From contig JAJRCO010000019.1 of NCBI GenBank assembly GCA_028678905.1, positions 1 through 45,603 on the forward strand: a DNA stretch of 45,603 nt, read 5' to 3'. Shown one piece after another: positions 6,184 through 27,873 of the stretch. The notes under the pieces are model-generated. The model had not been told where the DNA came from and did no database searches. It saw only the letters and a program-made list of their open reading frames with translations. Position numbers and translations under genes: made by a program. Source of the stretch: Methanomicrobiales archaeon (lineage in GTDB: Archaea; Halobacteriota; Methanomicrobia; Methanomicrobiales; JACTUA01). How positions within the stretch are numbered: position 1 is the stretch's first letter; the number at the start of each line of letters is the position of its first letter.

Positions 6184-6899
6184 GAGTACAGCACCGACCG
6201 CGAATACGACATGCCCGGATCTACTACCTGTCCGATGATGATCAGGGCCGATCGGTCGATCTCCGCCTCTTTTACTCTCTCCGCAATATCGGCGACCGTC
6301 CCTTTCACGATCTTCTGGTCTTTCCACGAGGCATGGTACACTACTGCTACCGGCGTATCGGGCATGAATTCGGTGCGGGAGAAGATATCAGCGATTTTTT
6401 CGGTGCCCAGGAATATCACCACGGTTGCTGCGAATCGCGAAAGCGCCCTCAGATCATCACGTTCCAGGGTCTGGCCTGCAGGACGGGTGATAATCAGGGT
6501 GTCGGCGACGCCTTTCAGGGTGAGCTGGGTCTGCAGGGCGGCCGCGGCGCCGAAGAGGGAGGAGACACCGGGCACGATCTCCGCACCGATACCCTTTTTC
6601 TTGAGCTCGGCGATCTGCTCCACGATTGCCCCATACAGCGAAGGGTCCCCGGAATGAAGTCTGACCACCAGCTTACCCGCCCATACCCCGGACTCCATGG
6701 TCTGCAGCAGTTCCTCCAGATGCATCCCCCAGCTGTCAAGCTTCTCGGGAGCTGGAGAGCGAGCTACCAGTTCGGGGTTGACCAGCGATCCTGTGTAGAT
6801 GAGCAGATCCGCCCTCCGCACCAGGTCCATCCCCTTTACCGTGATCAGGTCAGGGTCCCCCGGACCGGCACCAACAAAATATACTCGCTTCATCGCCAT
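6180..6899 (-). CDS. cbiF: Cobalt-precorrin-4 C11-methyltransferase CbiF
   Basis: The 239-aa ORF has VYFVGAGPGDPDLITVKG and HSGDPSLYGAIVEQ, the classic CbiF/CobM motifs. Confidence 0.9.
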   Translation of the reverse strand: MAMKRVYFVGAGPGDPDLITVKGMDLVRRADLLIYTGSLVNPELVARSPAPEKLDSWGMHLEELLQTMESGVWAGKLVVRLHSGDPSLYGAIVEQIAELKKKGIGAEIVPGVSSLFGAAAALQTQLTLKGVADTLIITRPAGQTLERDDLRALSRFAATVVIFLGTEKIADIFSRTEFMPDTPVAVVYHASWKDQKIVKGTVADIAERVKEAEIDRSALIIIGQVVDPGMSYSRSVLYS

Positions 6900-7504
6900 G
6901 CCACCATAATGCTCAGGTAATCGCTTGTCTCTGGAAACTCCTCTTCCCGATACACCTTTTCATTGTCCAAGAAGATCCGCTCCACCAGCACGAAATGGAG
7001 GTATCCCTCGTGCCGCAGCTTCTCCACCGTCTCACGGGGCTTCCGCACTTTCAGGAATATCTTCGCGGAGGGTTCCGATCCATCGGATACAATGAAACTG
7101 TTGGAAATGGGGATGCCGGCCACGGCCGCGCAGGCGGTGATGGCGCTCACCCCCGGTTCCGCCCGGCAACAGATGTCCGGATGCCGTGCCGCCATTACCG
7201 TGCATAACCGTGAAAACGTGGAGAAGAAATTTGGATCCCCAAGGAGCGCGAAAATGGCGATCCCGTCTCGGGCAGCGGCCGCGATCCGGTCCGCATTTCC
7301 GTGCAGGCACCGCTCGATCGCCTCTTCATCATCTGTCATGGGAAAGGGGAGGATAGTTGCCGTCCGATAGGGTGCGACCAGCTGTGCGGCCAGCTTCCCG
7401 GGGACGAAGACTGCGTCAGCCTCTCGCAGCAGCCGTACCGCCCGGAGGGTGAGAAGTTCCGGGTTCCCGGGGCCAAGGCCCAGCCCGATCAGCGTGACGA
7501 TCTC
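6890..7504 (-). CDS. cbiL: Cobalt-factor II (precorrin-2) C20-methyltransferase CbiL, with no canonical start codon in frame (possible frameshift)
   Basis: The track ORF (6890..7339) begins only at MTDDEE. The same frame stays open upstream and encodes EIVTLIGLGLGPGNPELLTLRAVRLLREADAVFVPG, the methylase SAM-binding N-terminus. I found no ATG, GTG or TTG in that frame between the upstream TGA and 7339. Confidence 0.7.
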   Translation of the reverse strand, partial: EIVTLIGLGLGPGNPELLTLRAVRLLREADAVFVPGKLAAQLVAPYRTATILPFPMTDDEEAIERCLHGNADRIAAAARDGIAIFALLGDPNFFSTFSRLCTVMAARHPDICCRAEPGVSAITACAAVAGIPISNSFIVSDGSEPSAKIFLKVRKPRETVEKLRHEGYLHFVLVERIFLDNEKVYREEEFPETSDYLSIMVAWR

Positions 7505-9389: not shown

Positions 9390-9549
9390 GAAGACTATTG
9401 CGATGGTTCCCTACTTAACCTGTATGACCTCGAACAGATCTTAAGTGAGCAAACTTATACATGATCGGAACCATCAATCGCATCAGGTCAGGGCCCTGCT
9501 ATGATCCACCGGAATCATGCCGGGTGGTGTTTTCATATAAGGTTCGGTG

Positions 9550-9714
9550 GCTTTCCGTACCAGAGAGCGTATCATCTCTGTGGGTATCTCACCATATCCC
9601 TTCCTAGATCACCTACCTGCGTTTTGTCATCTGGCTTGCCATCGGGCTGGTGATCTATTTCCTGTACGCCCGGCACCGGAGAGTTGGCTGGAAAATCGAA
9701 CGAAGGGATGATTG
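9550..9714 (+). pseudogene. Decayed C-terminal fragment of an APC-type amino-acid permease
   Basis: Codons 9607-9711 read ITYLRFVIWLAIGLVIYFLYARHRRVGWKIERRDD, with the stop at 9712-9714. This looks like a typical last TM helix plus basic tail of APC permeases. It is preceded directly by an in-frame TAG (9604-9606). Another frame just upstream reads AFRTRERIISVGISPYPFL. No permease body exists upstream. Confidence 0.4.
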
Positions 9715-9938
9715 AGTATAGGGATGAAACTTCCCTCCTGATCGTCCTTTTCTTTGTTGAATAACACAGTCGTAAAGGTGTTTAAGGGACTGGGAGTATC
9801 CTAAATAGTGCCCTATGCGAATGGCATTGAGATTCCTCACCACGTAAACTCTTACCACAGACGTCAGAAATATTGCGGCTATCCATTAAGAATTCTATTC
9901 ACACATATTGGAGAGATTTTCAGACTGTCCATCAATTG

Positions 9939-9950
9939 GAATAATATTAA
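9939..9950 (+). promoter_or_regulatory. Candidate TATA box for the kai operon
   Basis: aataatattaag lies about 36-47 nt upstream of the kaiC ATG in an AT-rich leader. This spacing would give a very short 5' UTR. Confidence 0.3.
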
Positions 9951-9985
9951 GATGCTCAACCCCGATAATGACGTACTGGTGAAAG

Positions 9986-11686
9986 ATGGGGTCACGCGTA
10001 CATGGAAAGAGTGCAAAAAAACTTATCTTCCCCAAAAGTCCCTCAGGCATCAAGGGGCTGGATGAGATACTTGAAGGAGGTCTTCCCACCGGGCGGCCCA
10101 CCCTAGTGTGCGGGAATGCCGGATGCGGGAAGACCCTTCTTGCGATGGAATTCCTGGTCCGAGGCGCAACAGAATATAATGAACCTGGGATCTTCATGTC
10201 CTTCGAAGAATCGGCGGGGGATCTCATTCAGAATGTCGCTTCGCTGGGTTTCGATGTACAGAAGCTGATCGATGAAAAAAAGATCTTCATCGATTTTGTC
10301 TATTTCGAGAAGAACGAGATCGAGGAGACCGGTGAATATGATCTTGAACCGCTCTTCATCCGGCTAGGAAATGCCATTGATACGGTAGGTGCAAAAAGGG
10401 TCGCCCTGGACACCATCGAATCCCTCTTTTCCGGCCTGAGTAATGAGACCATCCTGCGCGCAGAGCTCCGGCGCCTTTTCCGCTGGTTGAAGGTGCGGGG
10501 GGTCACCGCAATCATCACCGGAGAGAGTGGTATCAACAGCTCTCTCACCCGTCATGGTCTCGAGGAGTATGTATCCGATTGCGTGATCTTCCTGGATCAC
10601 CGCATCGATGACCAGATTTCGACCCGGCGGCTGCGGGTGGTGAAATACCGCGGATCGCTGCACGGGACGAATGAGTATCCCTTCCTCATCGATGAACAGG
10701 GCATTACAGTGTTCCCCATCACCTCGCTTAAGCTCGAACACGGCACCTCGAACGAACGGTTATCCACCGGCATCGAACGCCTTGATGCCATGCTCGAAGG
10801 AAAAGGGTTCTATAAGGGGAGCTCCATCCTCGTCTCCGGTACCCCGGGGACGGGAAAGACCAGTGTAGCCTCATCCTTTGCCCATGCGATCTGCAGGGAC
10901 GGGAAAAAGTGCCTGTATTTTGCCTTTGAAGAATCCCCCAGCCAGATCATACGGAATATGCGTTCCATCGGGATGGATCTGAAGCCCTGGGTCGACGCGG
11001 GGCTCCTCCGTTTCCACTCTTCAAGACCCACGGTATTCGGCCTGGAGTCCCATCTTGCGGTGATGTTTAAGACGATGCAGGATTTCAAGCCCGATGTGGT
11101 AGTGGTGGACCCTATCAGCAACCTATTGTCGGTAAGCGACGAAAAAAATGTACAGTCGATGTTCACCCGGCTCATCGATACCCTAAAGAACCAGCAGGTC
11201 ACCACAATGATGACCAATCTGACCCATTTTGGTATAGAAGAACAGACCCAGGTGGGTATCTCTTCTCTGATGGACACCTGGATTTTGTTAAAAGATCTGG
11301 AGGCGGAGGGGGAGCGTAACCGCGGGTTATATGTGTTGAAATCGCGGGGAATGGCACACTCGAACCAGATACGGGAATTTATCCTGTCTGAACAAGGCAT
11401 CAGCTTGATCGAGCCCTATATCGGGATGGGTGAGGTGAAGACCGGTTCTGCCCGCTATATACAGGAGACGATCGATACCGCGGAAGCGAAGAAACATGAA
11501 GAAGAACTGGAGCGTCAGCGCGTGAAGCTCGAGACCCGACGGAAAGTTCTTGATGCCCAGATCGCTGCGTTACAGGCAGAATTTGAGACGGAAAAAAGCG
11601 AATTTGAGCGGATTATGGAAGAGGAAAAGCAAGCGAAGCATGCCAAACGACAGGAGAAGAATCATTTGGGCTCAATGCGGGGCTGA
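9986..11686 (+). CDS. kaiC: Circadian clock protein KaiC homologue, double RecA/DnaB-like domain with a C-terminal coiled-coil extension
   Basis: 566 aa. The CI domain has Walker A GNAGCGKT and FEES; the CII domain has Walker A GTPGTGKT and FEES. The N-terminus reads PSGIKGLDEILEGGLP. The CII loop EEQTQVGISSLMDTWILL aligns with the S. elongatus phospho-site loop (ISTITD). The tail is AEAKKHEEELERQRVKLETRRKVLDAQIAALQAEFETEKSEFERIMEEEKQAK. Confidence 0.9.
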   Translation: MGSRVHGKSAKKLIFPKSPSGIKGLDEILEGGLPTGRPTLVCGNAGCGKTLLAMEFLVRGATEYNEPGIFMSFEESAGDLIQNVASLGFDVQKLIDEKKIFIDFVYFEKNEIEETGEYDLEPLFIRLGNAIDTVGAKRVALDTIESLFSGLSNETILRAELRRLFRWLKVRGVTAIITGESGINSSLTRHGLEEYVSDCVIFLDHRIDDQISTRRLRVVKYRGSLHGTNEYPFLIDEQGITVFPITSLKLEHGTSNERLSTGIERLDAMLEGKGFYKGSSILVSGTPGTGKTSVASSFAHAICRDGKKCLYFAFEESPSQIIRNMRSIGMDLKPWVDAGLLRFHSSRPTVFGLESHLAVMFKTMQDFKPDVVVVDPISNLLSVSDEKNVQSMFTRLIDTLKNQQVTTMMTNLTHFGIEEQTQVGISSLMDTWILLKDLEAEGERNRGLYVLKSRGMAHSNQIREFILSEQGISLIEPYIGMGEVKTGSARYIQETIDTAEAKKHEEELERQRVKLETRRKVLDAQIAALQAEFETEKSEFERIMEEEKQAKHAKRQEKNHLGSMRG

Positions 11687-11714
11687 ATGAAGTGACCTAC
11701 CAAGGACAGGTAGT

Positions 11715-12023
11715 ATGAAAAAAACCGTAAAAATAGACCCGGATATCTGGGAATTGCGACTATATGTCGCGGGACAGACACCGAAAGCCATCACCGCTTT
11801 CTCCAACCTCAAAAAGATCTGTGAAGAGCACCTCGCCGGTAAGTATCGTATAGAAGTAATCGATCTCCTCGAAAATCCGCAGCTTGCCCGCGGTGATCAG
11901 ATCGTCGCCTTGCCAACCCTGGTGCGTAATCTTCCCCAGCCGATACGAAAGATTATAGGGGACCTCTCCAATACAGAGCGTGTTCTCGTAGGGCTCGACC
12001 TCCGTCCCTTACGGCCGAAATAG
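11715..12023 (+). CDS. kaiB: Circadian clock protein KaiB homologue (copy 1)
   Basis: 102 aa: [29 protein letters not shown]...[49 protein letters not shown]. It is near-collinear with S. elongatus KaiB. It starts 28 nt after kaiC. Confidence 0.9.
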
Positions 12024-12032
12024 AGGAATACC

Positions 12033-12389
12033 ATGGTGCGAAATAAGAAAAAGTCAACCGATCTGGCAAACAAGGCTGAAAACTTTGAACAGGCCTTGGG
12101 GGCATCATCCCATAACCATTATGTATTGCGTCTCTATGTAACGGGCATTACTCCCAAATCCCGTATCGCCATCCAGAACATCAAAAAGATCTGTGAGGAG
12201 AATCTGCGAGGCCGCTATGATCTGGAGGTTGTCGATATCTATCAGCAACCAGATCTCATTCGGGAGGAACAGATCCTCGCCGCGCCCACGCTGATCAAGA
12301 AGTTGCCTCTTCCCCTGCGGAAAATCATCGGGGACATGTCGAATACCGATCGTATCCTCGTTGGTCTTGATCTGAAAGTTAAGGAATAG
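12033..12389 (+). CDS. kaiB: Circadian clock protein KaiB homologue (copy 2, with N-terminal extension)
   Basis: 118 aa: a basic N-terminal tail of about 29 aa, then YVLRLYVTGITPKSRIAIQNIKKICEENL...APTLIKKLPLPLRKIIGDMSNTDRILVGLDL. It starts 9 nt after copy 1. Confidence 0.9.
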   Translation: MVRNKKKSTDLANKAENFEQALGASSHNHYVLRLYVTGITPKSRIAIQNIKKICEENLRGRYDLEVVDIYQQPDLIREEQILAAPTLIKKLPLPLRKIIGDMSNTDRILVGLDLKVKE

Positions 12390-12402
12390 ATACTCGATTG
12401 CC

Positions 12403-14547
12403 ATGCCCGGTCCTGACGCCTCCCCACCGCCCTCTCAAAAAGATCTGGAGACAGAAAACGAGAGGCTCCGTATTGATCTGGCAGAAGCACAGCAGGCTCT
12501 TCAGGCGATACGGAATGGAGAAGTCGACGCGGTGGTGGTCGGTGGTCTTGGCGTAGAACAGATCTATACTCTCAAAGGGGCAGATTATGCCTACCGCATC
12601 CTTATTGAGGAGATGAACGATGCAGCGATCATTCTCTTGGATGATGGAACCATACTATTCTGTAACCGGTATTTTTCCCGGCTTGTAGATATCCCACTGG
12701 AAAAGATCTTTGGGGCGAACATCGAAAGATTTGTGTTTCACAGGGACCGGAAAAAATTCAAAAATTTGTTAAAAACCAGGGATGAACGGGGAGAGAAAAG
12801 GGAGATGAGGTTCACGTCAGCTGACGGTACCGTCACCCCCATGAATCTCTCTATGAACGCGGTAACAGGAGGTTGCGGGATCTGTATCGTCGCGACCGAT
12901 CTCTCCAAGCAAAGGCGAATCGAAGAAAAACTACGGGCTGAATATGAGATAACCCAGAAGATATTACTTGAACGGAATCAAGAATTAGCAGCAGCCGAGC
13001 GGGATTTGCAAAACCAGAATGAAGAACTGTCCGCAACCGAGGAAGAGCTACGAAAAAACTTAGACGAACTCAAGAAAGCGGAAGCGGCACTTACCGAGAG
13101 CGAATCCGTCCTGCATAGTTTCTTCAATTCGCCAGGAGTCATGCGTGGCATCGTGGAAGTGACCGCCGACGATGATGTTCAGTATATCATGAATAATGCC
13201 GATGCAGCCACGTTTGCCGGGCTGACGCCCGATACCATGAAGGGCAGGCGTGGTTCTGAATCGGGCGAATCGCGGGATGTCCTCCGAGTATGGGTCGACC
13301 ACTGCGCCCAAAGTAAACGCTTGGGGAAACCGGTCACCTTTGAATATCGCGATGGACGGGGAGATAAGGAGACCTGGCTATCTGCTACGATCAGCTATCT
13401 GGGTTCGGTACAGAACGGGCATCCGCGCTTTGCGTATGTTGCACAAGACATCACGAAGCGCAGAGTAATGGAGAGAGAGCTACAAAGCACCGCAGAGAAA
13501 TACTCCACCCTATTTAATTCCACGTCTGACGGCGTGTGGATCAATAACCTTCAGGGAGAAATTAAGGAAGTCAACGATGCCTACTGCCAAATGTCCGGGT
13601 ACCCACGTGATGAACTGCTAGGCAGACCGGTCGGTATGCTAGAAAAGGGCGAGACCTCCGACGAGATCATTGATCACATCAAGAGAATCCTTGAACAAGG
13701 GGGACATGATCGCTTTGAGACCCGCCACCGGCGAAAAGATGGCTCCATGTTCGATGTCGAGATCACTGCCCTCTATCTCGGCCAGGAGAGAAAGCAGATA
13801 GCGATGTTTGGCCGCAACATTACCGATCGAAAGCGAGCAGAACGTCAGCTGCAGGAGTACGCTGCGAGCCTTAAGCGAAGCAATGAAGATCTGGAACGCT
13901 TCGCCTACATCGCCTCTCACGATTTACAAGAGCCTCTCCGCAACGTGGTCAGCTTCTCCCAGCTCCTCGCCCGCCGGTACGAGGGAAAACTGGATCCGGA
14001 CGCGGACGAATTCATCGGGTACATTGTTGAGGGAGGGAAGAGAATGCAGGGTCTGGTCAGTGATCTGCTGGAGTATTCACGGATAAACACACGAGCAATG
14101 CCATCCCAGCCAACCGACAGTGAAGAGGTGGTTGATCGGGTCATGCAGAATCTCTTCTTCACCATTCAGGAGAGCAACGCTACTATCGAGACGGGCTCCC
14201 TTCCCATGGTAAATGTCGATCCGAACCAGCTGGGACTGGTCTTCCAGAACCTCATCGCCAATGCCATCAAGTTCCGCAGAGACGAACCGCCATACATCCA
14301 CATCTCTGCGGAAAAATCGGGATTCATGTGGAAGTTTGCGGTGCGGGACAACGGTATCGGGATCGATCCGGCATTCCACGAGCGTATTTTTGAGATCTTC
14401 CAGCGGTTGCATACCCGGGACAAATATCCTGGAACCGGAGTGGGGCTGGCCATCGCGAAACGTATCATCGAGAGACATGGAGGAAATATCTGGGTAGAGT
14501 CGGAAATGGGAAGGGGTTCGACGTTTTTCTTCACCCTACCAACTTGA
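12403..14547 (+). CDS. Multi-PAS sensor histidine kinase (coiled-coil, about three PAS domains, HisKA, HATPase_c)
   Basis: 714 aa. The H-box is ASHDLQEPLRNV; the N/G boxes are NLIANAIKF, DNGIGIDP and GTGVGLAIAKRI. PAS-like cores include DGVWINNLQGEIKEVNDAYCQMSGY...RHRRKDGSMFDVEI. There is a long NEEL-type coiled coil (QNQNEELSATEEELRKNLDELKK). It starts 13 nt after kaiB copy 2 and has no receiver domain. Confidence 0.9.
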   Translation: MPGPDASPPPSQKDLETENERLRIDLAEAQQALQAIRNGEVDAVVVGGLGVEQIYTLKGADYAYRILIEEMNDAAIILLDDGTILFCNRYFSRLVDIPLEKIFGANIERFVFHRDRKKFKNLLKTRDERGEKREMRFTSADGTVTPMNLSMNAVTGGCGICIVATDLSKQRRIEEKLRAEYEITQKILLERNQELAAAERDLQNQNEELSATEEELRKNLDELKKAEAALTESESVLHSFFNSPGVMRGIVEVTADDDVQYIMNNADAATFAGLTPDTMKGRRGSESGESRDVLRVWVDHCAQSKRLGKPVTFEYRDGRGDKETWLSATISYLGSVQNGHPRFAYVAQDITKRRVMERELQSTAEKYSTLFNSTSDGVWINNLQGEIKEVNDAYCQMSGYPRDELLGRPVGMLEKGETSDEIIDHIKRILEQGGHDRFETRHRRKDGSMFDVEITALYLGQERKQIAMFGRNITDRKRAERQLQEYAASLKRSNEDLERFAYIASHDLQEPLRNVVSFSQLLARRYEGKLDPDADEFIGYIVEGGKRMQGLVSDLLEYSRINTRAMPSQPTDSEEVVDRVMQNLFFTIQESNATIETGSLPMVNVDPNQLGLVFQNLIANAIKFRRDEPPYIHISAEKSGFMWKFAVRDNGIGIDPAFHERIFEIFQRLHTRDKYPGTGVGLAIAKRIIERHGGNIWVESEMGRGSTFFFTLPT

Positions 14548-15381
14548 ATGAAATGTCTAAGGGTAGTCCTTCCGGTTCCTTGAAGAGCTGGCGATTTCCG
14601 ATATGGGGAAAGTACCGTTAATGGTAGACCTTTGACATTGCTTTTAGGAACCATCGATGGCCAACGATATCCCCGTTTATCTGAGTTCTTGATCAGCATC
14701 CTCTGGGGTGCCGCACACATCGCCGTGGTGAAACCCGTTATGTCGGAATGGGCTACTGTCCACAGATAACAGAAGAATCATCACCATAGAATGGGTTACC
14801 GAGGAAATTTATTGGTCTCATTGGTTATCTCGCAGGTCTCGTACCGTCTGGCGGGATACAAAATCCGGTCTCGAGCCAGGTACTGGTTTCCCTGGCAGTG
14901 ATTCTTTTTCGTCCTGGCGATCTGGACTTTTCTGATCGGGGCCAGAACATCCATCCTTCCCATTAAAATCTGTCCTCTTATGTTGGCTCGTCAGCCATCC
15001 TGTTTTGACAGGGATTCTGGTTTAAGCGGGATGTGTAAATGTAATACGAGCATAAAGCCTGGACAGACAGAATGGACGATCTCTGTACGCAACCGGCCGC
15101 AAATCACGATGACGCGTAAAATGCCCCCTAAACCCCGCCTAAGGATCAGGGATTTGCTCTTCCCGAACTACCGGCATACCGGAAATTCCGACCCCGAATT
15201 ACTAGCCAAGATAGGATACAGATGCCACTTTGATGGAAAGGAATCCCCCAATATCGGGATACTCGTTGTCTGCCTGCTAATCACCAATGCGCGGAGTTGG
15301 AAGTTGTTTACAGTGTATCTCGCAAAAGAGAATAAATCGCTTCCGATCTCCCTTCCGAGTGGATACCGGCTCCGTCTGATA

Positions 15382-16866: not shown

Positions 16867-18015
16867 CTACTTGGACTCCTGCAGAACGCGGATCAGGGTT
16901 CGCATTCCTTCCTCTCCCACGGTTTTTTGGCTTCCGTGCATCATGTCGAAAAATCCGATGCCCAACATCGCCGCGACGGGGCGCTCCAGCATCCCACCCA
17001 GGATCAGATCGACCTTTTTTTCACGGAGTTTCTCGACAATGAGGTTCTGATCAGGCTCGACAAGGATTTCGCACTGTACCATCCCTCGGAGGCGTTCTTC
17101 CGTCCCCAAATCGAAGTCCAGCACGATCAGCGCCGGCTCTATGCCCAGCTCCTGCAGGAACCGGGTGAAGGCAACCGCCCGGGTCGGTCCCCCGATAAGG
17201 GCAATTCGTCGTGGCGGGATGGGAGGAAGTGCCGGACAATCCAGTCCTTCCGCCCCCTTGGAGATGCCCAGAGCATCCTGCACACTGTTGCAGAACTGAC
17301 GGGTGGCTCCCGCCCCGATGGGCAGCTCCACGATGAGAAACGGCGTACCATACTTTTCCCGGAGCAGTTCAGCTGCCTCCTTCCCGGAGGATTCACAGAG
17401 AACGACGTTCAGTGCGGCCGAACTCATCCGTTCGATCTCAAACCGCGAGGCACCCGCGGTGAGCACGGCGATGATCGATACCCCCATCCGGCCGAGAAGG
17501 GAGACCAGCTCCCGCAGATCGGGACCACTCCGCAGAACCCCGAGAAGATTCACCGACCGGAGGACGATGCTTCCATGAGCCACAGTGAGTTCGTCCACCA
17601 GACTGCGCAGGGTTTCGCTGTGGCCCTGGCGGAAGTCTCCCTCAAACCCACCGGCCTCGATCCCTATCACCCGGGCCCGGGTGCGCGCTTCGCGCGCTAC
17701 AGACGTAACATCCTCCCCGATGATACTGGAGGCACAGCAGGAGAGGACGGCGATAAGATCATAGGATCCGGTGGTATCCAATTCCTCGATGGCCTCCCGC
17801 AGTCGGTCCTCTGCACCGAATATCACGTCATGCTCATCAAGGCAGGTAGAATAGACCTGGGAAGGGCGATCCCCCCGCATGCCCAGAATATAATTGATGT
17901 GATAGACGCATCCTTTCGGCCCATGCACCAGGATCGCGCACCGCTTCAGGGTGCCCAGTGCCTTGATAGCTCCGAAGAGCCGGCAGGTACCTCTCGGGAT
18001 CCGGACGGCTTTCAT
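16867..18015 (-). CDS. cfbD: Ni-sirohydrochlorin a,c-diamide reductive cyclase subunit CfbD (nitrogenase NifD/NflD-like, coenzyme F430 synthesis)
   Basis: The 382-aa ORF shows the nitrogenase component-1-type oxidoreductase pattern (RGTCRLFGAIKAL...ILVHGPKGC...DVIFGAEDRL...SCCASSIIGED). Size and sequence fit the single-subunit methanogen NflD/CfbD. Confidence 0.75.
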   Translation of the reverse strand: MKAVRIPRGTCRLFGAIKALGTLKRCAILVHGPKGCVYHINYILGMRGDRPSQVYSTCLDEHDVIFGAEDRLREAIEELDTTGSYDLIAVLSCCASSIIGEDVTSVAREARTRARVIGIEAGGFEGDFRQGHSETLRSLVDELTVAHGSIVLRSVNLLGVLRSGPDLRELVSLLGRMGVSIIAVLTAGASRFEIERMSSAALNVVLCESSGKEAAELLREKYGTPFLIVELPIGAGATRQFCNSVQDALGISKGAEGLDCPALPPIPPRRIALIGGPTRAVAFTRFLQELGIEPALIVLDFDLGTEERLRGMVQCEILVEPDQNLIVEKLREKKVDLILGGMLERPVAAMLGIGFFDMMHGSQKTVGEEGMRTLIRVLQESK

Positions 18016-19626: not shown

Positions 19627-21216
19627 ATGAACCTACGACAACCGAATGCAAATGAGGCTACGCTGACGGCGAACCGCTCCCGGGATGTCTCCCCAATGTC
19701 CGGGATCTGTTCCCGCTGCATCGATGGATGCAAGGGGCTGTGTGAGATCTGGCTCTCCACCTTCAGAGGAAGAGAAGTACTCTATCCGGGCCCCTTCGGA
19801 GAGATGACCGCGGGGTCTGACAAGATATATCCGATAGACTACTCACACCTCAACATCCAGGGGTATGCACTGGGTGCGAAGGGGCTTCCCAAATCGGTGG
19901 AGGCAGGGCCCGACACCGCGGTATTCTACAACGTAGATACCGAGACCTCTTATGGATGGGACAAAAAAGTCAAAATGAAATTACCCATCTTCACCGGCGC
20001 GCTAGGTTCGACCGAGATCGCCCGCAAGAACTGGGACCACTTTGCCATCGGTGCCGCTATCTCCGGTATCACCCTGGTCTGCGGTGAGAACGTCTGCGGT
20101 ATCGATCCCGGGCTGGTTCTGGACAACAAGGGGAAAGTCACCAAGTCTCCTGAAATGGACCGCAGACTGGAGATCTACCGGAAGTTCCACGAGGGGTACG
20201 GGGAGATCCTCGTTCAGATGAACGTGGAAGACACCCGCCTGGGGACCGCCGAGTATGTGTCCTCTAAGCACAACCTGGACACCATCGAGCTGAAATGGGG
20301 TCAGGGTGCAAAGTGCATTGGGGGCGAGATCAAGGTCAAAAGCATCGAACGTGCCGCCGAACTGAAAAAGAGAGGGTACATCGTCCTCCCCGATCCTACT
20401 CGCCACGACATGCAGGTCGCGTTCAAGGAGGGCGGTATCAAGGAGTTCGAACGCCACTCCCGCCTGGGATTCGTCAGCCAGGATGGCTTCATGAATGAGA
20501 TCGACCGGCTGCGGGATATCGGTTTCAAGCGGATCACCGTGAAGACCGGCGCGTACTCCATGCGAGAACTCGCCATGGCCATGCGCTGGGGCGCCGATGC
20601 AAAGATTGACCTGCTGACCATCGATGGTGCGGGCGGCGGAACCGGTATGAGTCCCTGGCCCATGATGAACGAATGGGGTATTCCTACCTTCTACCTCCAG
20701 GCGCTCACGTATGAATTCTGTGAGACCCTGAAGGGAAGAGGCATCCGGGTGCCCGATATCGCCATCGCTGGGGGATTTGCCGACGAAGCCAACGTGTTCA
20801 AGGCCCTCGCCTTGGGCAGCCCCTACGTGAAGGCGGTGTGCATGGGTAGAGGTCTCATGATCCCTGGCATGGTTGGTAAGAACATCGGCGAATGGGTCAA
20901 ATCAGGAAATATCCCGCCAAATGTCGCCAAATACGGAAAGACTCTTCCTGAGATCTTCCTCCTCTACGAGGAACTGAAAGAGAAGTACGGAAAGCGGTTC
21001 GAGGAGATCCCGACCGGCGCCATGGGCATCTACACCTATGCGTCCCGGTTCCGCACCGGTCTCCAGCAGATCATGGCTGGAAGCAGGAACTTCGCGCTCA
21101 ACACCATCTCCCGCAAGGACCTGATGTCCCTGACCGAAGAAGCCACCAAGGTCTGCGGTATCCCCTACGTGATGGACGCCTATCGCGAAGAGGCCGAGCG
21201 GATCCTCGGAGATTAA
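19627..21216 (+). CDS. Glutamate synthase-related FMN-binding protein (GltB domain-2 family)
   Basis: 529 aa. It has an N-terminal Cys cluster (CSRCIDGCKGLCEIW), a TIM-barrel FMN region (TIDGAGGGTGMSPWPMMNEWGIP) and IAGGFADEANVFKALALG, as in archaeal GltB-like proteins. Confidence 0.75.
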   Translation: MNLRQPNANEATLTANRSRDVSPMSGICSRCIDGCKGLCEIWLSTFRGREVLYPGPFGEMTAGSDKIYPIDYSHLNIQGYALGAKGLPKSVEAGPDTAVFYNVDTETSYGWDKKVKMKLPIFTGALGSTEIARKNWDHFAIGAAISGITLVCGENVCGIDPGLVLDNKGKVTKSPEMDRRLEIYRKFHEGYGEILVQMNVEDTRLGTAEYVSSKHNLDTIELKWGQGAKCIGGEIKVKSIERAAELKKRGYIVLPDPTRHDMQVAFKEGGIKEFERHSRLGFVSQDGFMNEIDRLRDIGFKRITVKTGAYSMRELAMAMRWGADAKIDLLTIDGAGGGTGMSPWPMMNEWGIPTFYLQALTYEFCETLKGRGIRVPDIAIAGGFADEANVFKALALGSPYVKAVCMGRGLMIPGMVGKNIGEWVKSGNIPPNVAKYGKTLPEIFLLYEELKEKYGKRFEEIPTGAMGIYTYASRFRTGLQQIMAGSRNFALNTISRKDLMSLTEEATKVCGIPYVMDAYREEAERILGD

Positions 21217-21220
21217 TCTC

Positions 21221-21284
21221 CTCTTTTCTAATTTTTAAATCAATAATTTCCGGTTCGAGCACGGCTTAAGTTATTTTTATTTTG
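21221..21284 (+). terminator. Oligo-T archaeal terminator candidates after the gltB-like gene
   Basis: The runs ctcttttctaatttttaaat and ttatttttattttg lie within 70 nt of the stop codon. Confidence 0.4.
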
Positions 21285-21458
21285 AGATCGCACCACCCTG
21301 CAGAATTTCTCGACAGATCACGCCCCTGTTGATTCGGGGGACGTAACATCGCCACTACCCTGTATCGCTGCCTTCGATCCAGGGGCGTTCTTTTTCCGCT
21401 GCCAGCAGATTTATCATGATCGATGGACATCTACCGTTCGATCGGGTGATCGGAGACC

Positions 21459-22886
21459 ATGTACCATCGTATTCTCACCGCACTGGATGGATCGGGACCC
21501 TCCAATCTTGCCGCCGATACCGCCTTCCACGTCGCCGCCGCCGGCACGGATGTACAACTGCTCGGATGTCACGTCTATGCGGCCCGAATGCACTATACCC
21601 GCTTCGGAGAGATGGAGCCGGGGTTGCCTGAACAGTACCAGGAAGGAGAAAAACTTACCCAACTGCGGCAGACCCATGACGGTCTGATTTCAGAAGGAAT
21701 GAAGACCATTTCTGATGCCTATCTCGATGCTCTCCGAAAGGCCACAAAGGATAAGAACATATCCTGGGAGAGCATCACGCCCGAAGGAAAAAATTACGTA
21801 GAGTTCCTGCAGGTCATCGGGACCAAGCATCCGGACCTGGTGGTGATGGGCTCCTGCGGCCATGGCCGGGTTCCCGAATCTGGGCTGGGCAGCATGGCAG
21901 AACGGATCCTCCTCTATGCTCGGGACACGGATCTGCTCCTGGTCAGGAGACCCTGGGAGTTCAGGGGGCGACCCATCGTGGTAGGGATAGACGGGAGCAC
22001 GGACAGTTATGCAGCGCTGGCACGGGCTCTGGAGATCGCCCGCCAGGAGCAGGCCCGGGTAGACCTGGTTGCGGTGTTCGATCCATTCTTCCATTCGGGG
22101 GTGTTCCGCTCTATTGCTGATGCCCTGCCGGAGAAAAAGAAGGAGCAGTTCAATTTTTCCGCCCAGGAGAAGCTGCACGATGAGATCATCGACCGCGGTC
22201 TGGAGAAGCTGTACGAGGAAAAACTCCTCCAGGGAAAGGCATTGGCCGCGGAACAGGGGGTAGAGGTCCGCATCCACGTACTGAAAGGCAAGGTCTTCTC
22301 CCAGCTTCACCATTATGCCATGCTGGAGAGGGCGGCGCTGCTCGTCGTAGGGAGATGGGGGCTGCATCGGGAAAGGATCTCTACCATCGGTTCCCACACC
22401 TTGAATCTCGCCCGTATCTGCGATACCAACCTACTGGTGGTGGCTCCCTTCAGAGAGACAGTACCTGTCCCCGCCGTTCCCCGACAGGAGGCGACCACTC
22501 TTTCCTGGAGTCCTCCAGCGGAAAAGGCGATGGAACAGGTGCCAGAATTCGCCCGCGGAATGGCCAGAAAAGCGGTAGAACTGTACGGCCGGGAGAATGG
22601 ACTCGGGGAGATCACCCCGGACACCGTAAATGTCGTGGCCGGAAGATTTGGAATGCAGATCTCCCCACCCCCGAATTCCACAGCGTCAGTTACCAGAGAT
22701 GCGGAGACCATCGTATTAAGAAAGATCAAAAGACTGGCCCCAGACTTTCACCGTCACATTGTAAAGTCCCGCATCATAGGCCAGGAGATCAAGAAAGGTG
22801 ACCATATTCTGGTCTACGAGGTGGAAGAGACGAGTCCTCCGGGTATGGTGAAGGTCACCGAACGGACCTCACTGGAGTTCCGGTGA
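21459..22886 (+). CDS. Tandem universal stress protein (USP-USP) fused to a PCP_red-like domain
   Basis: 475 aa. Two USP modules are present (MYHRILTALDGS...DLVVMGSCGHG and RPIVVGIDGS...LLVVGRWG). They are followed by LSWSPPAEKAMEQVPEFARGMARKAVELYGRENGLGEITPDTV, which resembles the BchB C-terminal PCP_red domain (PF08369), and then an unassigned tail of about 75 aa. Confidence 0.7.
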   Translation: MYHRILTALDGSGPSNLAADTAFHVAAAGTDVQLLGCHVYAARMHYTRFGEMEPGLPEQYQEGEKLTQLRQTHDGLISEGMKTISDAYLDALRKATKDKNISWESITPEGKNYVEFLQVIGTKHPDLVVMGSCGHGRVPESGLGSMAERILLYARDTDLLLVRRPWEFRGRPIVVGIDGSTDSYAALARALEIARQEQARVDLVAVFDPFFHSGVFRSIADALPEKKKEQFNFSAQEKLHDEIIDRGLEKLYEEKLLQGKALAAEQGVEVRIHVLKGKVFSQLHHYAMLERAALLVVGRWGLHRERISTIGSHTLNLARICDTNLLVVAPFRETVPVPAVPRQEATTLSWSPPAEKAMEQVPEFARGMARKAVELYGRENGLGEITPDTVNVVAGRFGMQISPPPNSTASVTRDAETIVLRKIKRLAPDFHRHIVKSRIIGQEIKKGDHILVYEVEETSPPGMVKVTERTSLEFR

Positions 22887-25692: not shown

Positions 25693-26183
25693 ACTATCGC
25701 CCAGATGCCCTGGACCGAGCCCTGTTAGATCGAATGCAGAATGGAATACCCCTGACCGAGAAGGTTTGGGATTCTATTGGGGGAGAGGTAGGTATCACGG
25801 GATCCGAGGTCCTCCAACGGATACGCCGGCTTCGCGCCGCGCACATCCTTCGTGGCATCGGGCCGGTAATCGAACCCGGTGAGGTGGGACTGGGAGCATC
25901 CTCTCTCATTGCTCTCCGGGTGGCACCAGAGCGGATCCAGACAGTCGCCGCTATCATCAATGCATATGAGGAAGTCTCCCACAACTACCAGAGAGATCAT
26001 ACCTACAACCTCTGGTTTACTCTTACTGCCTCTTCACCTCAGGAACTCACCAGGGTTCGCGAGGAGATATGCAGGCGGGCCGGACTGGAGAGAGAAGATG
26101 TCCTGGATCTTCCCCGCAGAAAAAGATTCAAAATCAACGTTCGTTTCCGCATCGGCGGGAACGGCGCGAGGAGGAGCCGATGA
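25689..26183 (+). CDS. ahbA: Siroheme decarboxylase subunit (AsnC/Lrp-like, AhbA/NirD-L type)
   Basis: 164 aa: LDRALLDRMQNGIPLTEKVWDSIGGEVGITGSEVLQRIRRL...VSHNYQR. This shows the HTH_AsnC plus NirD/L/G/H fold pattern. Confidence 0.75.
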   Translation: MNYRPDALDRALLDRMQNGIPLTEKVWDSIGGEVGITGSEVLQRIRRLRAAHILRGIGPVIEPGEVGLGASSLIALRVAPERIQTVAAIINAYEEVSHNYQRDHTYNLWFTLTASSPQELTRVREEICRRAGLEREDVLDLPRRKRFKINVRFRIGGNGARRSR

Positions 26184-27837: not shown

Positions 27838-27873
27838 GGTTTATGTAGATGTAACAGTATTGTGTGCCCTCAT

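What the first reader, a model, noticed from the sequence alone, without database searches (positions are those of the whole stretch)
9986..14547. Complete kaiC-kaiB-kaiB-PAS histidine kinase operon inside a methanogen chromosome
SEEN IN SEQUENCE:
- Four co-directional ORFs are separated by only 28, 9 and 13 nt.
- ORF1 is a full double-domain KaiC. CI has Walker A GNAGCGKT (aa 43-50) and catalytic EE (74-75). CII has Walker A GTPGTGKT (285-292) and EE (315-316).
- The CII segment EEQTQVGISSLMDTWILL aligns position for position with the Synechococcus elongatus loop EEQSITDSHISTITDTIILL. This puts S426/S427 (nt 11261-11266) on the S431/T432 phosphosites and T421 on T426.
- ORF2 and ORF3 are both full-length KaiB. 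ORF4 is a multi-PAS HisKA/HATPase kinase.
- There is no KaiA, SasA, CikA or response regulator in the window.
- The flanking genes (cbi operon, cfbD, egsA, aIF2alpha, Nop10, PriS) are unambiguously archaeal and methanogen-type.

ESTABLISHED KNOWLEDGE:
- KaiB plus KaiC without KaiA can act as an hourglass or damped timer in some purple bacteria.
- Archaea commonly carry KaiC-like ATPases. To my knowledge bona fide KaiB partners are rare there, and no archaeal KaiBC module has been characterised biochemically.

INFERENCE: this is a candidate KaiA-independent timing or energy-state signalling module, with the PAS kinase as output (or input), in a strictly anaerobic organism that probably lives in the dark. 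What it would entrain to (temperature, redox, H2/formate supply or a syntrophic partner rhythm) is open.
Basis: partly seen in the sequence, partly recalled or inferred. Interest (0 to 1): 0.9.

Follow-up and report, generated by a model that had tools for sequence, protein, structure and literature searches.

The report
KaiC-KaiB-KaiB-kinase timer cassette in a methanogen
A methanogenic archaeon carries an intact, conserved four-gene copy of the KaiA-free "hourglass" clock module known from purple bacteria, with a second KaiB and a sensor kinase attached; it is a known kind of system in an unusual, dark, anaerobic host.

Summary
Four co-directional genes (9986-14547; gaps 28/9/13 nt) encode a double-domain KaiC, two KaiB proteins and a multi-PAS histidine kinase, all with intact catalytic motifs.

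The KaiC belongs to the KaiC2 / Rhodobacter sphaeroides KaiC-RS type, not the cyanobacterial type. It has Ser426/Ser427 at the mapped KaiC-RS phosphosites. It also has a 79-residue C-terminal helix equivalent to the coiled-coil tail that makes KaiC-RS independent of KaiA.

The host is a Methanomicrobiales archaeon close to Methanolinea. Both flanks of the cassette recur in independent assemblies, and all four genes are under purifying selection, so this is not a chimera.

New here:
- The order kaiC > kaiB-a > kaiB-b > PAS gene recurs in 65 of 73 loci across bacteria and archaea.
- KaiB-a and KaiB-b are distinct conserved paralogues.
- The kinase's N-terminal helix-hairpin-PAS module is Kai-linked. 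It is also present in the R. sphaeroides operon kinase, and elsewhere it is fused to other effectors or stands alone.

Most likely function: an ATP/ADP-driven phospho-hourglass with a kinase output. No biochemistry was possible.

Archaeal KaiB2/KaiC2 pairs and kaiC-B-PAS/HK operons are already in the literature, so interest is moderate.

The parts
9936..9949 (+). Candidate archaeal TATA box (TTGGAATAATATTA), about 42 nt upstream of the kaiC ATG.
   Evidence: GGAATAAT(A/T)TTA is conserved upstream of kaiC in four related assemblies (L083, L085, L001, L084), while the surrounding spacer diverges. Its promoter function is inferred.
9978..9982 (+). Shine-Dalgarno-like GGTGA, 4 nt before the kaiC start.
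   Evidence: Read directly from the sequence. The GGTG core is conserved in relatives.
9986..11686 (+). kaiC, KaiC2 / KaiC-RS type, 566 aa.
   Evidence: NF006799 scores 735 bits (cut-off 408). TIGR02655, the cyanobacterial KaiC model, scores only 345 against a cut-off of 546. The best PDB hit is 8DBA at 652 bits, against about 330 bits for S. elongatus KaiC. The top Foldseek hits are 8FWI, 8FWJ and 8DBA.
10112..10135 (+). CI Walker A motif GNAGCGKT. The catalytic EE pair lies at nt 10205-10210.
   Evidence: The residues are invariant in 37 homologues.
10838..10861 (+). CII Walker A motif GTPGTGKT. The catalytic EE pair lies at nt 10928-10933.
   Evidence: The EE pair aligns with KaiC-RS E302/E303.
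11246..11266 (+). Phosphosite loop: T421 and S426/S427. W432 follows at nt 11279-11281.
   Evidence: These residues align without gaps to KaiC-RS S413/S414, the experimentally mapped phosphosites, and to W419. T421, S426, S427 and W432 are invariant in 37 homologues.
11444..11680 (+). C-terminal extension (aa 487-565), predicted to be one continuous helix. It is equivalent to the KaiC-RS coiled-coil tail.
   Evidence: The sequence aligns to 8DBA through residue 546. AF2 predicts helix 487-565 with pLDDT 74-86 over residues 491-560. Foldseek aligns 552 columns to the KaiC-RS dodecamer chains.
11715..12023 (+). kaiB-a, 102 aa, orthologue of KaiB-RS.
   Evidence: PF07689 scores 97 bits. The best PDB hit is 8FWJ_M at 112 bits. 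The KaiB-a class averages 64% internal identity and 63% identity to KaiB-RS.
12033..12389 (+). kaiB-b, 118 aa. This second conserved KaiB paralogue carries an N-terminal extension of about 25 aa.
   Evidence: PF07689 scores 92 bits. It is 52% identical to KaiB-a. The KaiB-b class is separate (a-b identity 45%; monophyletic in 34 of 50 bootstraps). A KaiB-b gene sits directly upstream of the PAS N-module gene in 67 of 73 loci.
12403..14547 (+). Multi-PAS HisKA/HATPase histidine kinase, 714 aa.
   Evidence: Pfam and NCBIfam hits. The H-box His506 lies at nt 13918-13920, and the N, G1 and G2 boxes are intact.
12436..12912 (+). Kai-linked N-terminal module of the kinase (aa 12-170): a helix, an 'AIRxGEVDAvVV' beta-hairpin and a PAS core.
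   Evidence: It is conserved in the fourth gene of 73 loci. AF2 gives pLDDT 86. Three of three homologues found by sequence alone lie next to kaiB. It is present in the R. sphaeroides kaiBC-operon HWE kinase.
12913..13890 (+). Coiled-coil linker plus two further PAS domains. This is the variable sensor region.
   Evidence: The third PAS domain spans aa 363-483. This stretch is replaced or differs (GAF, extra PAS) in close relatives, while the N-module and kinase core align.
13891..14541 (+). Kinase core: HisKA (aa 497-563) and HATPase_c (aa 606-713).
   Evidence: dN/dS is 0.04-0.10 against relatives.

Best explanation
The cassette is a KaiA-independent, KaiC2-type (KaiC-RS-like) phospho-hourglass / energy-state switch with its own kinase output, resident in a Methanomicrobiales chromosome.

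Proposed mechanism, by homology to the R. sphaeroides system:
1. KaiC assembles through its C-terminal coiled-coil tail. The tail keeps the A-loop exposed, so KaiC autophosphorylates Ser427 and Ser426 whenever ATP is plentiful. No KaiA is needed.
2. KaiB-a, the KaiB-RS orthologue, binds the CI ring of phospho-KaiC and stimulates ATP hydrolysis. When the ATP:ADP ratio falls, KaiC runs back to the unphosphorylated state.
3. KaiC phosphorylation therefore records the recent history of cellular energy charge. It needs an external cue to be reset. In a hydrogenotrophic methanogen that cue would be H2/formate supply rather than light.
4. The state is read out through the conserved N-terminal helix-hairpin-PAS module of the histidine kinase (His506). 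The second paralogue, KaiB-b, probably helps as an adaptor. The kinase then signals to an unlinked response regulator.
5. The variable middle PAS domains add a second sensory input.

What is shown: gene content, residues, fold, synteny, purifying selection and gene-neighbourhood coupling. What is inferred: every activity, the KaiB-b adaptor role, the output direction and the physiological cue.
For: KaiC identity:
- NF006799 scores 735 bits.
- The sequence aligns with KaiC-RS over residues 16-557, tail included. S426/S427, EE74/75, EE315/316 and W432 fall on S413/S414, E62/63, E302/303 and W419.
- AF2 predicts a tail helix at 487-565, and Foldseek ranks KaiC-RS first.
- The KaiC-RS mechanism (coiled coil replaces KaiA, ATP:ADP resets, KaiB stimulates ATPase) is described in PMC10076222.

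KaiB: the closest structure to KaiB-a is KaiB-RS bound to KaiC.

Gene order and coupling:
- The four-gene order is kept in 65 of 73 loci, and KaiB-b lies directly before the N-module gene in 67 of 73. This holds even in the permuted loci L015 and L082.
- The N-module is found fused to HisKA kinases, an HWE kinase (R. sphaeroides), hybrid HK-REC proteins and a GerE HTH, and also alone. The Kai-facing part is constant and the effector is interchangeable.

Retention in the host:
- dN/dS is 0.03-0.17 for all four genes, like the flanking peptidase.
- Both flanks are conserved in independent assemblies.
- A TATA-like element upstream of kaiC is conserved.
Against: - No biochemical or expression data exist for any archaeal member.
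- No response regulator is encoded in the window or near any archaeal cassette, so the output path is incomplete.
- R. sphaeroides works with one KaiB, so the role of KaiB-b is not covered by the model system.
- Four loci have the N-module with only KaiB-a, so KaiB-b is not obligatory for coupling.
- The N-module core is a generic PAS fold with no informative structural neighbour.
- KaiB-a and KaiB-b score just below NCBIfam's equivalog cut-off for KaiB (105 and 101 bits against 110).
- Dodecamer formation cannot be judged from a monomer model.
Confidence: 0.6

Rival explanations
1. The module is a genuine diel or circadian timekeeper, entrained by temperature or by a partner's rhythm, rather than a passive energy-state hourglass. 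KaiB-b or the kinase would supply the feedback that KaiA supplies in cyanobacteria.
For: Both KaiBs keep the Gly-x-Asp ('GLD') of the fold-switch segment that cyanobacterial KaiB uses for slow, delayed binding, whereas KaiB-RS has NLK there (PMC11665890). A second conserved KaiB is an extra component not needed by the R. sphaeroides hourglass.
Against: There is no KaiA. The characterised members of this KaiC clade behave as an hourglass (R. sphaeroides, PMC10076222) or a proto-circadian timer (R. palustris, PMC4794148). The carriers found here are largely anaerobes of dark habitats: Bathyarchaeia, Methanoperedens, Syntrophales and Methanomicrobiales. Nothing in the sequence speaks to self-sustained oscillation.
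Confidence: 0.1
2. The module is a stress-response switch with no timing role, as proposed for the Legionella kaiBC operon. KaiC phosphostate would simply gate a two-component stress pathway.
For: [quoted passage not shown] The kinase's sensor region is variable, which suggests lineage-specific stimuli.
Against: Legionella KaiB is a distant hit to these KaiBs (52-58 bits, against 97-112 bits for KaiB-RS). This reading overlaps mechanistically with the best explanation rather than excluding it.
Confidence: 0.2
3. The PAS kinase is the input rather than the output. It would sense redox, a ligand or similar and act on KaiC or KaiB.
For: The kinase has three PAS domains and no linked response regulator in archaea. 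A redox or oxygen input role was suggested for the purple-bacterial kinase (PMC10931921).
Against: The part conserved with the Kai genes is the N-module. The effector part varies (HisKA, HWE, HK-REC, GerE DNA-binding domain, or none), which is the pattern expected of an output. In some bacteria a receiver is fused to the kinase or follows it.
Confidence: 0.15
4. The segment is an assembly chimera or bacterial contamination, or a recently acquired and decaying passenger.
For: GC3 of the kai genes (0.56-0.64) is about 1.5 sd below the other window genes (0.67 +/- 0.05). Relatives sit on plasmids in Alphaproteobacteria. Two neighbouring genes present in relatives, a permease and a DUF6114 gene, are lost from the window.
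Against: Both junctions recur in independent assemblies: the upstream DUF3887 lipoprotein gene in L001 and L086, the permease gene or its 3' end in L001, L083, L084 and L085, and the downstream M20 peptidase in L084, L085 and L086. The Methanomicrobiales KaiCs form a clade with 82/100 bootstrap support, 100/100 for the inner clade. dN/dS is 0.03-0.17. All catalytic motifs are intact.
Confidence: 0.02

Closest known systems
KaiBC hourglass of Rhodobacter (Cereibacter) sphaeroides KD131: KaiC-RS/KaiB-RS, PDB 8DBA, 8FWI, 8FWJ (Pitsawong et al. 2023, PMC10076222)
   Same: - KaiC is 53-54% identical over the full length.
- It has the Ser-Ser phosphosites, both catalytic EE pairs and W419.
- It has the roughly 50-80-residue C-terminal helical tail.
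- KaiB-a is about 63-70% identical to KaiB-RS.
- The gene order is kaiC > kaiB > kinase, and the operon kinase carries the same N-terminal helix-hairpin-PAS module.
   Different: - The host is an archaeon and a strict anaerobe.
- A second conserved KaiB paralogue (KaiB-b) lies between KaiB-a and the kinase.
- The kinase core is HisKA type, not HWE.
- Both KaiBs keep the GLD fold-switch motif, where KaiB-RS has NLK.
- The cassette is chromosomal, not plasmid-borne.
kaiC-kaiB-PAS/HK operon of Rhodopseudomonas palustris, a proto-circadian timer (Ma et al. 2016, PMC4794148)
   Same: It has the same operon logic (kaiC, kaiB, PAS histidine kinase, probably a single promoter), belongs to the KaiC2 class and has no KaiA.
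   Different: It has one KaiB and a phototrophic bacterial host.
KaiB2/KaiC2 pairs reported in a few archaeal genera by genome survey (Schmelling et al. 2017, PMC5520375)
   Same: The pairing is the same: archaeal genomes with KaiB2 always carry a KaiC2. Kinases with a SasA-like kinase core were noted in Methanospirillum and Methanosalsum.
   Different: The survey did not describe the four-gene cassette, the two KaiB classes or the Kai-linked PAS module. Methanolinea, Methanoculleus, Methanoperedens and Bathyarchaeia carriers are seen here.
Cyanobacterial KaiABC with SasA/CikA outputs (S. elongatus)
   Same: It has a double-domain KaiC with the homologous phosphosite loop, KaiB binding to CI, and histidine kinases that read out the KaiC state.
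   Different: - It is only 37% identical, and TIGR02655 scores below cut-off.
- The window has no KaiA.
- The phosphosites are Ser-Ser, not Ser-Thr.
- The window KaiC has a coiled-coil tail.
- The kinase has no fused KaiB-like domain (SasA) and no pseudo-receiver (CikA). KaiB-b next to the kinase may play a SasA-N-domain-like role as a separate protein; this is a hypothesis.
Legionella pneumophila kaiBC stress operon (KaiB structure 4KUN)
   Same: It is a non-photosynthetic host carrying KaiB and KaiC2-class KaiC without KaiA.
   Different: It is a much more distant KaiB (52-58 bits, against 97-112 bits for KaiB-RS). Legionella KaiB has Ala at the fold-switch Gly position.

Membership tests
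KaiC (bona fide double-domain KaiC; NCBIfam NF006799 / Pfam PF06745 twice) | Two tandem KaiC/RecA-like domains that score above the curated cut-off. | tested here: met
   NF006799 scores 735 bits (cut-off 408). PF06745 scores 377 bits in two stretches. The archaeal KaiC-like, RadA and ArlH models all score far below their cut-offs.
KaiC (bona fide double-domain KaiC) | A Walker A motif and a catalytic Glu-Glu pair in both CI and CII. | tested here: met
   GNAGCGKT at 43-50 with EE74/75, and GTPGTGKT at 285-292 with EE315/316. The residues are invariant in 37 homologues.
KaiC2 subgroup / KaiC-RS clade | Two serines at the phosphosite pair, in place of Ser-Thr. | tested here: met
   S426/S427 align to KaiC-RS S413/S414. 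KaiC2 is defined as Ser-Ser in PMC5520375.
KaiC2 subgroup / KaiC-RS clade | A C-terminal extension of about 50 aa that forms a helix (coiled coil). | tested here: met
   The sequence aligns to the 8DBA tail. AF2 predicts a single helix at 487-565. Foldseek aligns 552 columns to 8FWI and 8FWJ.
KaiC2 subgroup / KaiC-RS clade | Closer to KaiC-RS than to KaiC1. | tested here: met
   652 bits to KaiC-RS against about 330 bits to S. elongatus KaiC; 53-54% against 37% identity. There is no tree with KaiC1 or KaiC3 references, and no KaiC3 protein was compared at all, so placement rests on the Ser-Ser pair, the tail and the scores.
KaiC2 subgroup / KaiC-RS clade | Dodecamer formation through the tail, KaiA-independent autokinase activity, and ATP:ADP-dependent dephosphorylation. 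| not testable with these tools
   These require purified protein.
Cyanobacterial KaiC1 (TIGR02655) | A score above the equivalog cut-off. | tested here: not met
   345 bits against a cut-off of 546.
KaiB family (Pfam PF07689) | A full-length KaiB domain above the gathering score. | tested here: met
   97.4 and 91.7 bits (cut-off 27), covering positions 1-81 of the 82-position model.
Circadian clock protein KaiB, equivalog level (NF006798 / TIGR02654) | A score above the curated equivalog cut-off. | tested here: not met
   NF006798 scores 105.2 and 101.4 against 110. TIGR02654 scores 100 and 96.6 against 145. These are KaiB-family proteins of the KaiB2/KaiB-RS kind, not cyanobacterial KaiB1.
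Metamorphic (fold-switching) KaiB | Gly at the G88/G89 position and Asp two residues later. | tested here: met
   Both window KaiBs read V-G-L-D at the aligned position, whereas KaiB-RS reads N-L-K. Actual fold switching cannot be tested here.
SasA-type output kinase | An N-terminal KaiB-like (thioredoxin-fold) domain fused to the kinase. | tested here: not met
   No PF07689 hit occurs in the kinase. NF006800 scores 108 bits against a cut-off of 342, over the kinase core only.
CikA-type kinase / KaiA | A pseudo-receiver domain (CikA), or a KaiA protein in the locus. | tested here: not met
   No receiver domain occurs in any window ORF of 90 aa or more. No KaiA hit appears among the scanned ORFs.
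HisKA-class two-component histidine kinase | An H-box His together with N, G1 and G2 boxes. | tested here: met
   SH506DLQEPLR, NLIANAIK at 616, DNGIG at 649 and GTGVGL at 677. HisKA scores 45 bits and HATPase_c 99 bits.
kaiC-B-PAS/HK operon (purple-bacterial type) | kaiC, kaiB and a PAS kinase lie co-directionally and adjacent, and the kinase starts with the helix-hairpin-PAS module. | tested here: met
   The window gaps are 28, 9 and 13 nt. The R. sphaeroides KD131 operon kinase shares the module (BLASTP E 7e-12; hhalign probability 99.6%). The difference is that the window has an extra kaiB-b.

The most novel reading that the evidence does not exclude
KaiB-b together with the helix-hairpin-PAS N-module may form a previously undescribed, widely conserved output branch of KaiC2-type timers. 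It would work as a 'split SasA': a stand-alone KaiB-like adaptor docks a modular effector (HisKA or HWE kinase, hybrid kinase, GerE transcription factor) onto KaiC.

In methanogens, Bathyarchaeia, Methanoperedens and syntrophic bacteria the module would then time or integrate energy supply (H2/formate, ATP:ADP) rather than daylight. Kai timers would be general starvation or energy-history clocks of dark anaerobic life.
Probability: 0.3. Interest if true: 0.7.

Novelty: new variant of a known kind. Interest (0 to 1): 0.5.

Why it matters
Kai proteins are the only fully reconstituted prokaryotic clock, and the KaiA-free KaiBC hourglass has been dissected in one phototroph only.

This locus shows the same machine, with its coiled-coil tail, phosphosites and KaiB, stably kept under purifying selection in strictly anaerobic methanogens. 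Closely similar cassettes occur in other dark-habitat archaea and syntrophs. That argues the ancestral job of the module is tracking energy state rather than light.

Two components are not part of the published mechanism: a second KaiB class and a Kai-linked PAS module with interchangeable effectors. They give a concrete, testable handle on the unknown output pathway of non-cyanobacterial Kai systems. The cassette is also found in a named Methanoculleus strain (sp. Wushi-C6); if that strain is in culture, experiments in an archaeal host become feasible.

Tried and rejected
- **N-module homologue search.** Searching the big protein collection with kinase residues 1-180 returned only 21 short fragments. 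That gave no census and no KaiB-PAS fusion ('Rosetta stone') test. Three hits were rescued by context look-ups.
- **N-module fold search.** The hits were generic PAS domains (FixL, DOS, LOV, HTR-like). Nothing pointed to a ligand or a Kai-binding precedent.
- **Origin of the archaeal cassettes.** A single archaeal acquisition appeared in one NJ tree, but bootstrap support was only 8/100. The number and direction of transfers is unresolved. A recent transfer from a syntrophic partner is not supported: Syntrophales KaiCs are about 60% identical, no closer than other groups.
- **Apparent KaiC-KaiB fusion in L088.** The C-terminal region is out-of-frame sequence, so I treated it as a frameshift artefact.
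- **RNA genes.** Rfam at gathering thresholds and ARAGORN found nothing in the window.
- **Terminators.** The intrinsic-terminator scan after the kinase gave only weak matches, about 2 sd above the shuffle mean.
- **Literature.** Searches for a two-KaiB cassette, or for KaiB in the named methanogen genera, found nothing beyond Schmelling 2017. Makarova et al. 2017 on archaeal KaiC-like hubs is not held.
- **Source look-up.** The exact-sequence look-up of the window's ProRS failed.
- **'cfbD' flank label.** Rejected.

Full report
**1. Observation**

All are on the + strand, separated by 28, 9 and 13 nt.

- CI Walker A GNAGCGKT at 43-50 and EE at 74-75.
- CII Walker A GTPGTGKT at 285-292 and EE at 315-316.
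- T421 and S426/S427 (nt 11261-11266).

Profile searches agree.
- ORF1 carries KaiC PF06745 twice (377 bits). It passes NCBIfam's KaiC model NF006799 with 735 bits (cut-off 408).
- The archaeal KaiC-like, ArlH, RadA and RadB models all fall far below their cut-offs.
- ORF2 and ORF3 are full-length KaiB domains (PF07689, 97 and 92 bits).
- ORF4 has three PAS domains, HisKA and HATPase_c. Its H-box His506 and its N, G1 and G2 boxes are intact.

I found no KaiA, no KaiB-like domain fused to the kinase, and no receiver domain in any window ORF of 90 aa or more.

**2. Which KaiC**

The protein fails the cyanobacterial KaiC model TIGR02655 (345 bits against 546).

Its best solved relatives are the three Rhodobacter sphaeroides KaiC-RS entries 8DBA, 8FWI and 8DB3, at 626-653 bits. 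S. elongatus KaiC scores about 330 bits.

The alignment to KaiC-RS runs from residue 16 to 557.

Using native KaiC-RS numbering, these window residues correspond:

| Window | KaiC-RS | Role |
|---|---|---|
| S426/S427 | S413/S414 | experimentally mapped phosphosites |
| EE74/75 | E62/E63 | CI catalytic pair |
| EE315/316 | E302/E303 | CII catalytic pair |
| W432 | W419 | allosteric network residue |

All of these, and T421, are invariant in an alignment of 37 homologues.

An AlphaFold2 model (pLDDT 79.8) has two RecA-like halves followed by one unbroken helix, 487-565. Foldseek ranks the KaiC-RS dodecamer chains first, at 53-54% identity over up to 552 aligned columns. S. elongatus KaiC follows at 37%.

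The Ser-Ser pair and the roughly 50-residue tail are the published hallmarks of the KaiC2 subgroup (PMC5520375, PMC10076222). I did not build a tree with KaiC1 or KaiC3 reference sequences. The assignment rests on these diagnostic features and on the score gap to KaiC1; no KaiC3 protein was compared.

**3. Host and authenticity**

The flanks encode archaeal markers: G1P dehydrogenase EgsA (504 bits), aIF2-alpha, Elp3, a GINS-like protein, a proteasome assembly chaperone, and a cobamide (cbi) cluster.

The closest genome hit for the cassette is a Methanolinea tarda MAG, with 80% KaiC identity.

An unrelated flanking gene (16867-18015) has its best named relatives in Methanomicrobiales (70-71% identity), Methanoculleus (61%) and Methanoregula (57%). 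That gene is annotated 'nitrogenase component 1'. It scores only 74 bits on the CfbD model (cut-off 268).

Both junctions of the cassette recur in independent assemblies.
- Upstream: the DUF3887 lipoprotein gene recurs in L001 and L086. An amino-acid permease gene, or its 3' end, precedes kaiC in L001, L083, L084 and L085.
- Downstream: a DUF6114 gene recurs in L084 and L085, and the M20 peptidase gene in L084, L085 and L086.
- The window itself has lost the permease, leaving a degraded 3' remnant with an in-frame stop at 9464-9682. It has also lost the DUF6114 gene.

Other evidence that the cassette is a long-standing resident:
- dN/dS against five relatives is 0.07-0.12 for kaiC, 0.03-0.11 for kaiB-a, 0.04-0.12 for kaiB-b and 0.04-0.17 for the kinase. 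The flanking peptidase gives 0.07-0.13.
- GC3 of the kai genes (mean 0.59) is only about 1.5 sd below the rest of the window.
- An element TTGGAATAATATTA lies about 42 nt upstream of the kaiC ATG. It is conserved among the Methanolinea-like relatives and is a plausible archaeal TATA box. A GGTGA ribosome-binding site follows.

The chimera and decaying-passenger readings are therefore rejected.

**4. Distribution**

The genome scan returned 80 loci. The same KaiC type, at 55-67% identity, occurs in these groups:
- Archaea: Bathyarchaeia, Methanoperedens, Methanoculleus sp. Wushi-C6 and a Methanosarcinales MAG.
- Bacteria: many Bacteroidota, Acidobacteriota, Syntrophales, Chloroflexota, Planctomycetota and others.

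In bootstrapped NJ trees (566 columns, 83 sequences):
- the window and its three closest relatives form a clade in 100/100 replicates;
- the Methanomicrobiales, including Methanoculleus, form a clade in 82/100;
- monophyly of all archaea is unsupported at 8/100.

The number of inter-domain transfers is open.

Relatives sit on plasmids in Alphaproteobacteria. These include the R. sphaeroides KD131 plasmid that carries the characterised system, and a conjugative Pararhizobium plasmid. Plasmids offer a route for spread.

**5. What the comparison adds**

*(a) Gene order.* The gene order kaiC > kaiB > kaiB > PAS gene is not a local peculiarity. Of 73 loci with the fourth gene, 65 have exactly this order.

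*(b) Two KaiB classes.* The two KaiBs are distinct, conserved classes.

| Measure | KaiB-a | KaiB-b |
|---|---|---|
| Mean identity within the class | 64% | 53% |
| Mean identity to KaiB-RS | 63% | 50% |

- Identity between the two classes is 45%.
- KaiB-b is monophyletic in 34 of 50 bootstraps.
- KaiB-b has its own signature: YVTG, IDIYQQP, LIKKLPLPLR.
- Both window proteins keep the G-L-D of the fold-switch segment, where KaiB-RS has N-L-K.

*(c) The conserved part of the fourth gene.* The conserved part is not the kinase. It is an N-terminal module of about 160 residues containing:
- a helix (aa 12-37);
- a beta-hairpin carrying 'AIRxGEVDAvVV...YTL' (aa 43-56);
- a PAS core;
- a 'TDLt' junction leading into a long helix.

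The middle sensor region differs even among close relatives, with GAF or extra PAS domains.

*(d) A Kai-linked module.*
- Homologues retrieved by sequence alone were next to kaiB in all three cases examined. They were a stand-alone protein followed by a separate kinase, a GerE-HTH fusion, and a stand-alone protein after three kaiB genes.
- In Bacteroidales the fourth gene is the module alone, at about 235 aa.
- In Acidobacteriota it is a hybrid kinase-receiver.
- The HWE-type kinase of the R. sphaeroides KD131 kaiBC operon starts with the same module (BLASTP E 7e-12; hhalign probability 99.6%).

*(e) KaiB-b adjacency.* KaiB-b lies directly upstream of the module gene in 67 of 73 loci. This holds in two permuted loci: the Planctomycetes locus with Bb-HK-C-Ba, and Methanoculleus with Ba-Bb-HK-C-B. 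Four loci, and R. sphaeroides, have the module with KaiB-a only.

**6. Mechanism**

By homology with KaiC-RS (PMC10076222), I propose the following.
1. The tail joins hexamers and holds the A-loop open.
2. KaiC autophosphorylates S427 and S426 without KaiA while ATP is abundant.
3. KaiB-a binds CI of phospho-KaiC and raises ATPase activity.
4. A fall in ATP:ADP drives dephosphorylation.

This makes an hourglass reset by energy state. In a hydrogenotroph the cue would be substrate supply rather than light.

The constant N-module with swappable effectors argues that the kinase is the output. KaiB-b's fixed position next to it suggests an adaptor role. That would be functionally reminiscent of SasA's KaiB-like N-domain, but as a separate polypeptide. 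This last step is a hypothesis supported only by gene neighbourhood. A marginally better match of KaiB-b than KaiB-a to the SasA model's N-terminal region adds little (26 against 18 bits).

No response regulator is encoded nearby in any archaeal locus, so the downstream path is unknown. All activities are inferred.

**7. Comparison with the literature and novelty**

Already published:
- kaiC-B-PAS/HK operons in R. palustris and R. sphaeroides (PMC4794148);
- the KaiC-RS mechanism (PMC10076222);
- the existence of KaiB2/KaiC2 pairs in four archaeal genera, with kinases resembling SasA's kinase core in Methanospirillum and Methanosalsum (PMC5520375).

Public annotation already labels close relatives 'circadian clock protein KaiC'.

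In the searchable library I found no description of the two-KaiB cassette, of KaiB-a and KaiB-b as separate classes, or of the Kai-linked PAS module. I also found no biochemical work on any archaeal member. Literature outside that library could exist.

I therefore rate the locus a new variant of a known kind, with moderate interest (0.5). It is a good experimental entry point into Kai function in dark, anaerobic life.

Noticed in passing
window 9464-9682: This is a degraded 3' remnant of an APC-family amino-acid permease gene. It is 45% identical over 73 aa to the C-terminus of an intact 468-aa gene that precedes kaiC in relatives L001 and L084, and it has an in-frame stop and indels. The window has lost the rest of the gene.
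   Followed up: yes
window 14548-15381: This non-coding gap of about 830 nt lies between the kinase and the convergent M20 peptidase gene. Relatives L084 and L085 carry a DUF6114 membrane-protein gene here, and no trace of it was found in the window (tblastn, E < 0.01).
   Followed up: partly
It is a NifD/NifE-like 'nitrogenase component 1' protein. It scores 74 bits on the CfbD model TIGR03282 (cut-off 268). Its relatives in Methanomicrobiales are not named CfbD.
   Followed up: yes
window 6328-7495: The cbiL-like ORF (6890-7339, -) matches only positions 53-200 of the 202-position model, so its N-terminal 52 or so residues are missing. A 195-aa ORF with no family hit (6333-6920, +) fills the gap to cbiG. 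This may be a frameshifted or truncated cbiL.
   Followed up: no
window 24589-28359: This cluster encodes a siroheme decarboxylase AhbB (171 bits, above cut-off), two AhbC/AhbD/NirJ-like radical-SAM proteins (below cut-offs) and a cupredoxin-like protein. It is an alternative-haem-pathway-like set in a Methanomicrobiales genome. To my knowledge (not checked here), that order is considered to lack cytochromes.
   Followed up: no
window 19627-22886: Two unusual ORFs lie here: a 529-aa protein with only a glutamate-synthase central-region hit, and a 475-aa protein that combines two universal-stress-protein domains with a protochlorophyllide-reductase 57-kD-subunit C-terminal motif.
   Followed up: no
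L089 2016-5582 (NCBI GCA_020059835.1): This locus has four kaiB genes and two PAS N-module genes, one of them fused to a GerE/LuxR DNA-binding domain. There is no kaiC within 5 kb. It suggests that a KaiB-b plus N-module pair can drive a one-component transcription factor.
   Followed up: partly
L082 5379-10077 (Methanoculleus sp. Wushi-C6, WBKO01000002.1): This is a permuted cassette (kaiB-a, kaiB-b, kinase, kaiC, third kaiB) in a named Methanoculleus strain. It lies about 3 kb upstream of formate dehydrogenase (fdhAB-like) and a formate transporter gene.
   Followed up: partly
L012, L017, L018, L022, L024, L025, L029, L056, L072 (Bacteroidales, Draconibacterium and an Ignavibacteriaceae MAG): In these loci the fourth gene of the cassette is only about 235 aa. 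It consists of the PAS N-module plus a helix, with no kinase domain.
   Followed up: partly
L092 (C. sphaeroides KD131 pRSKD131A) and L093 (Pararhizobium plasmid p3): The experimentally studied KaiBC-RS operon is plasmid-borne. A two-KaiB version sits on a conjugative plasmid in Pararhizobium. Plasmids are therefore a plausible vehicle for the patchy distribution of the cassette.
   Followed up: partly
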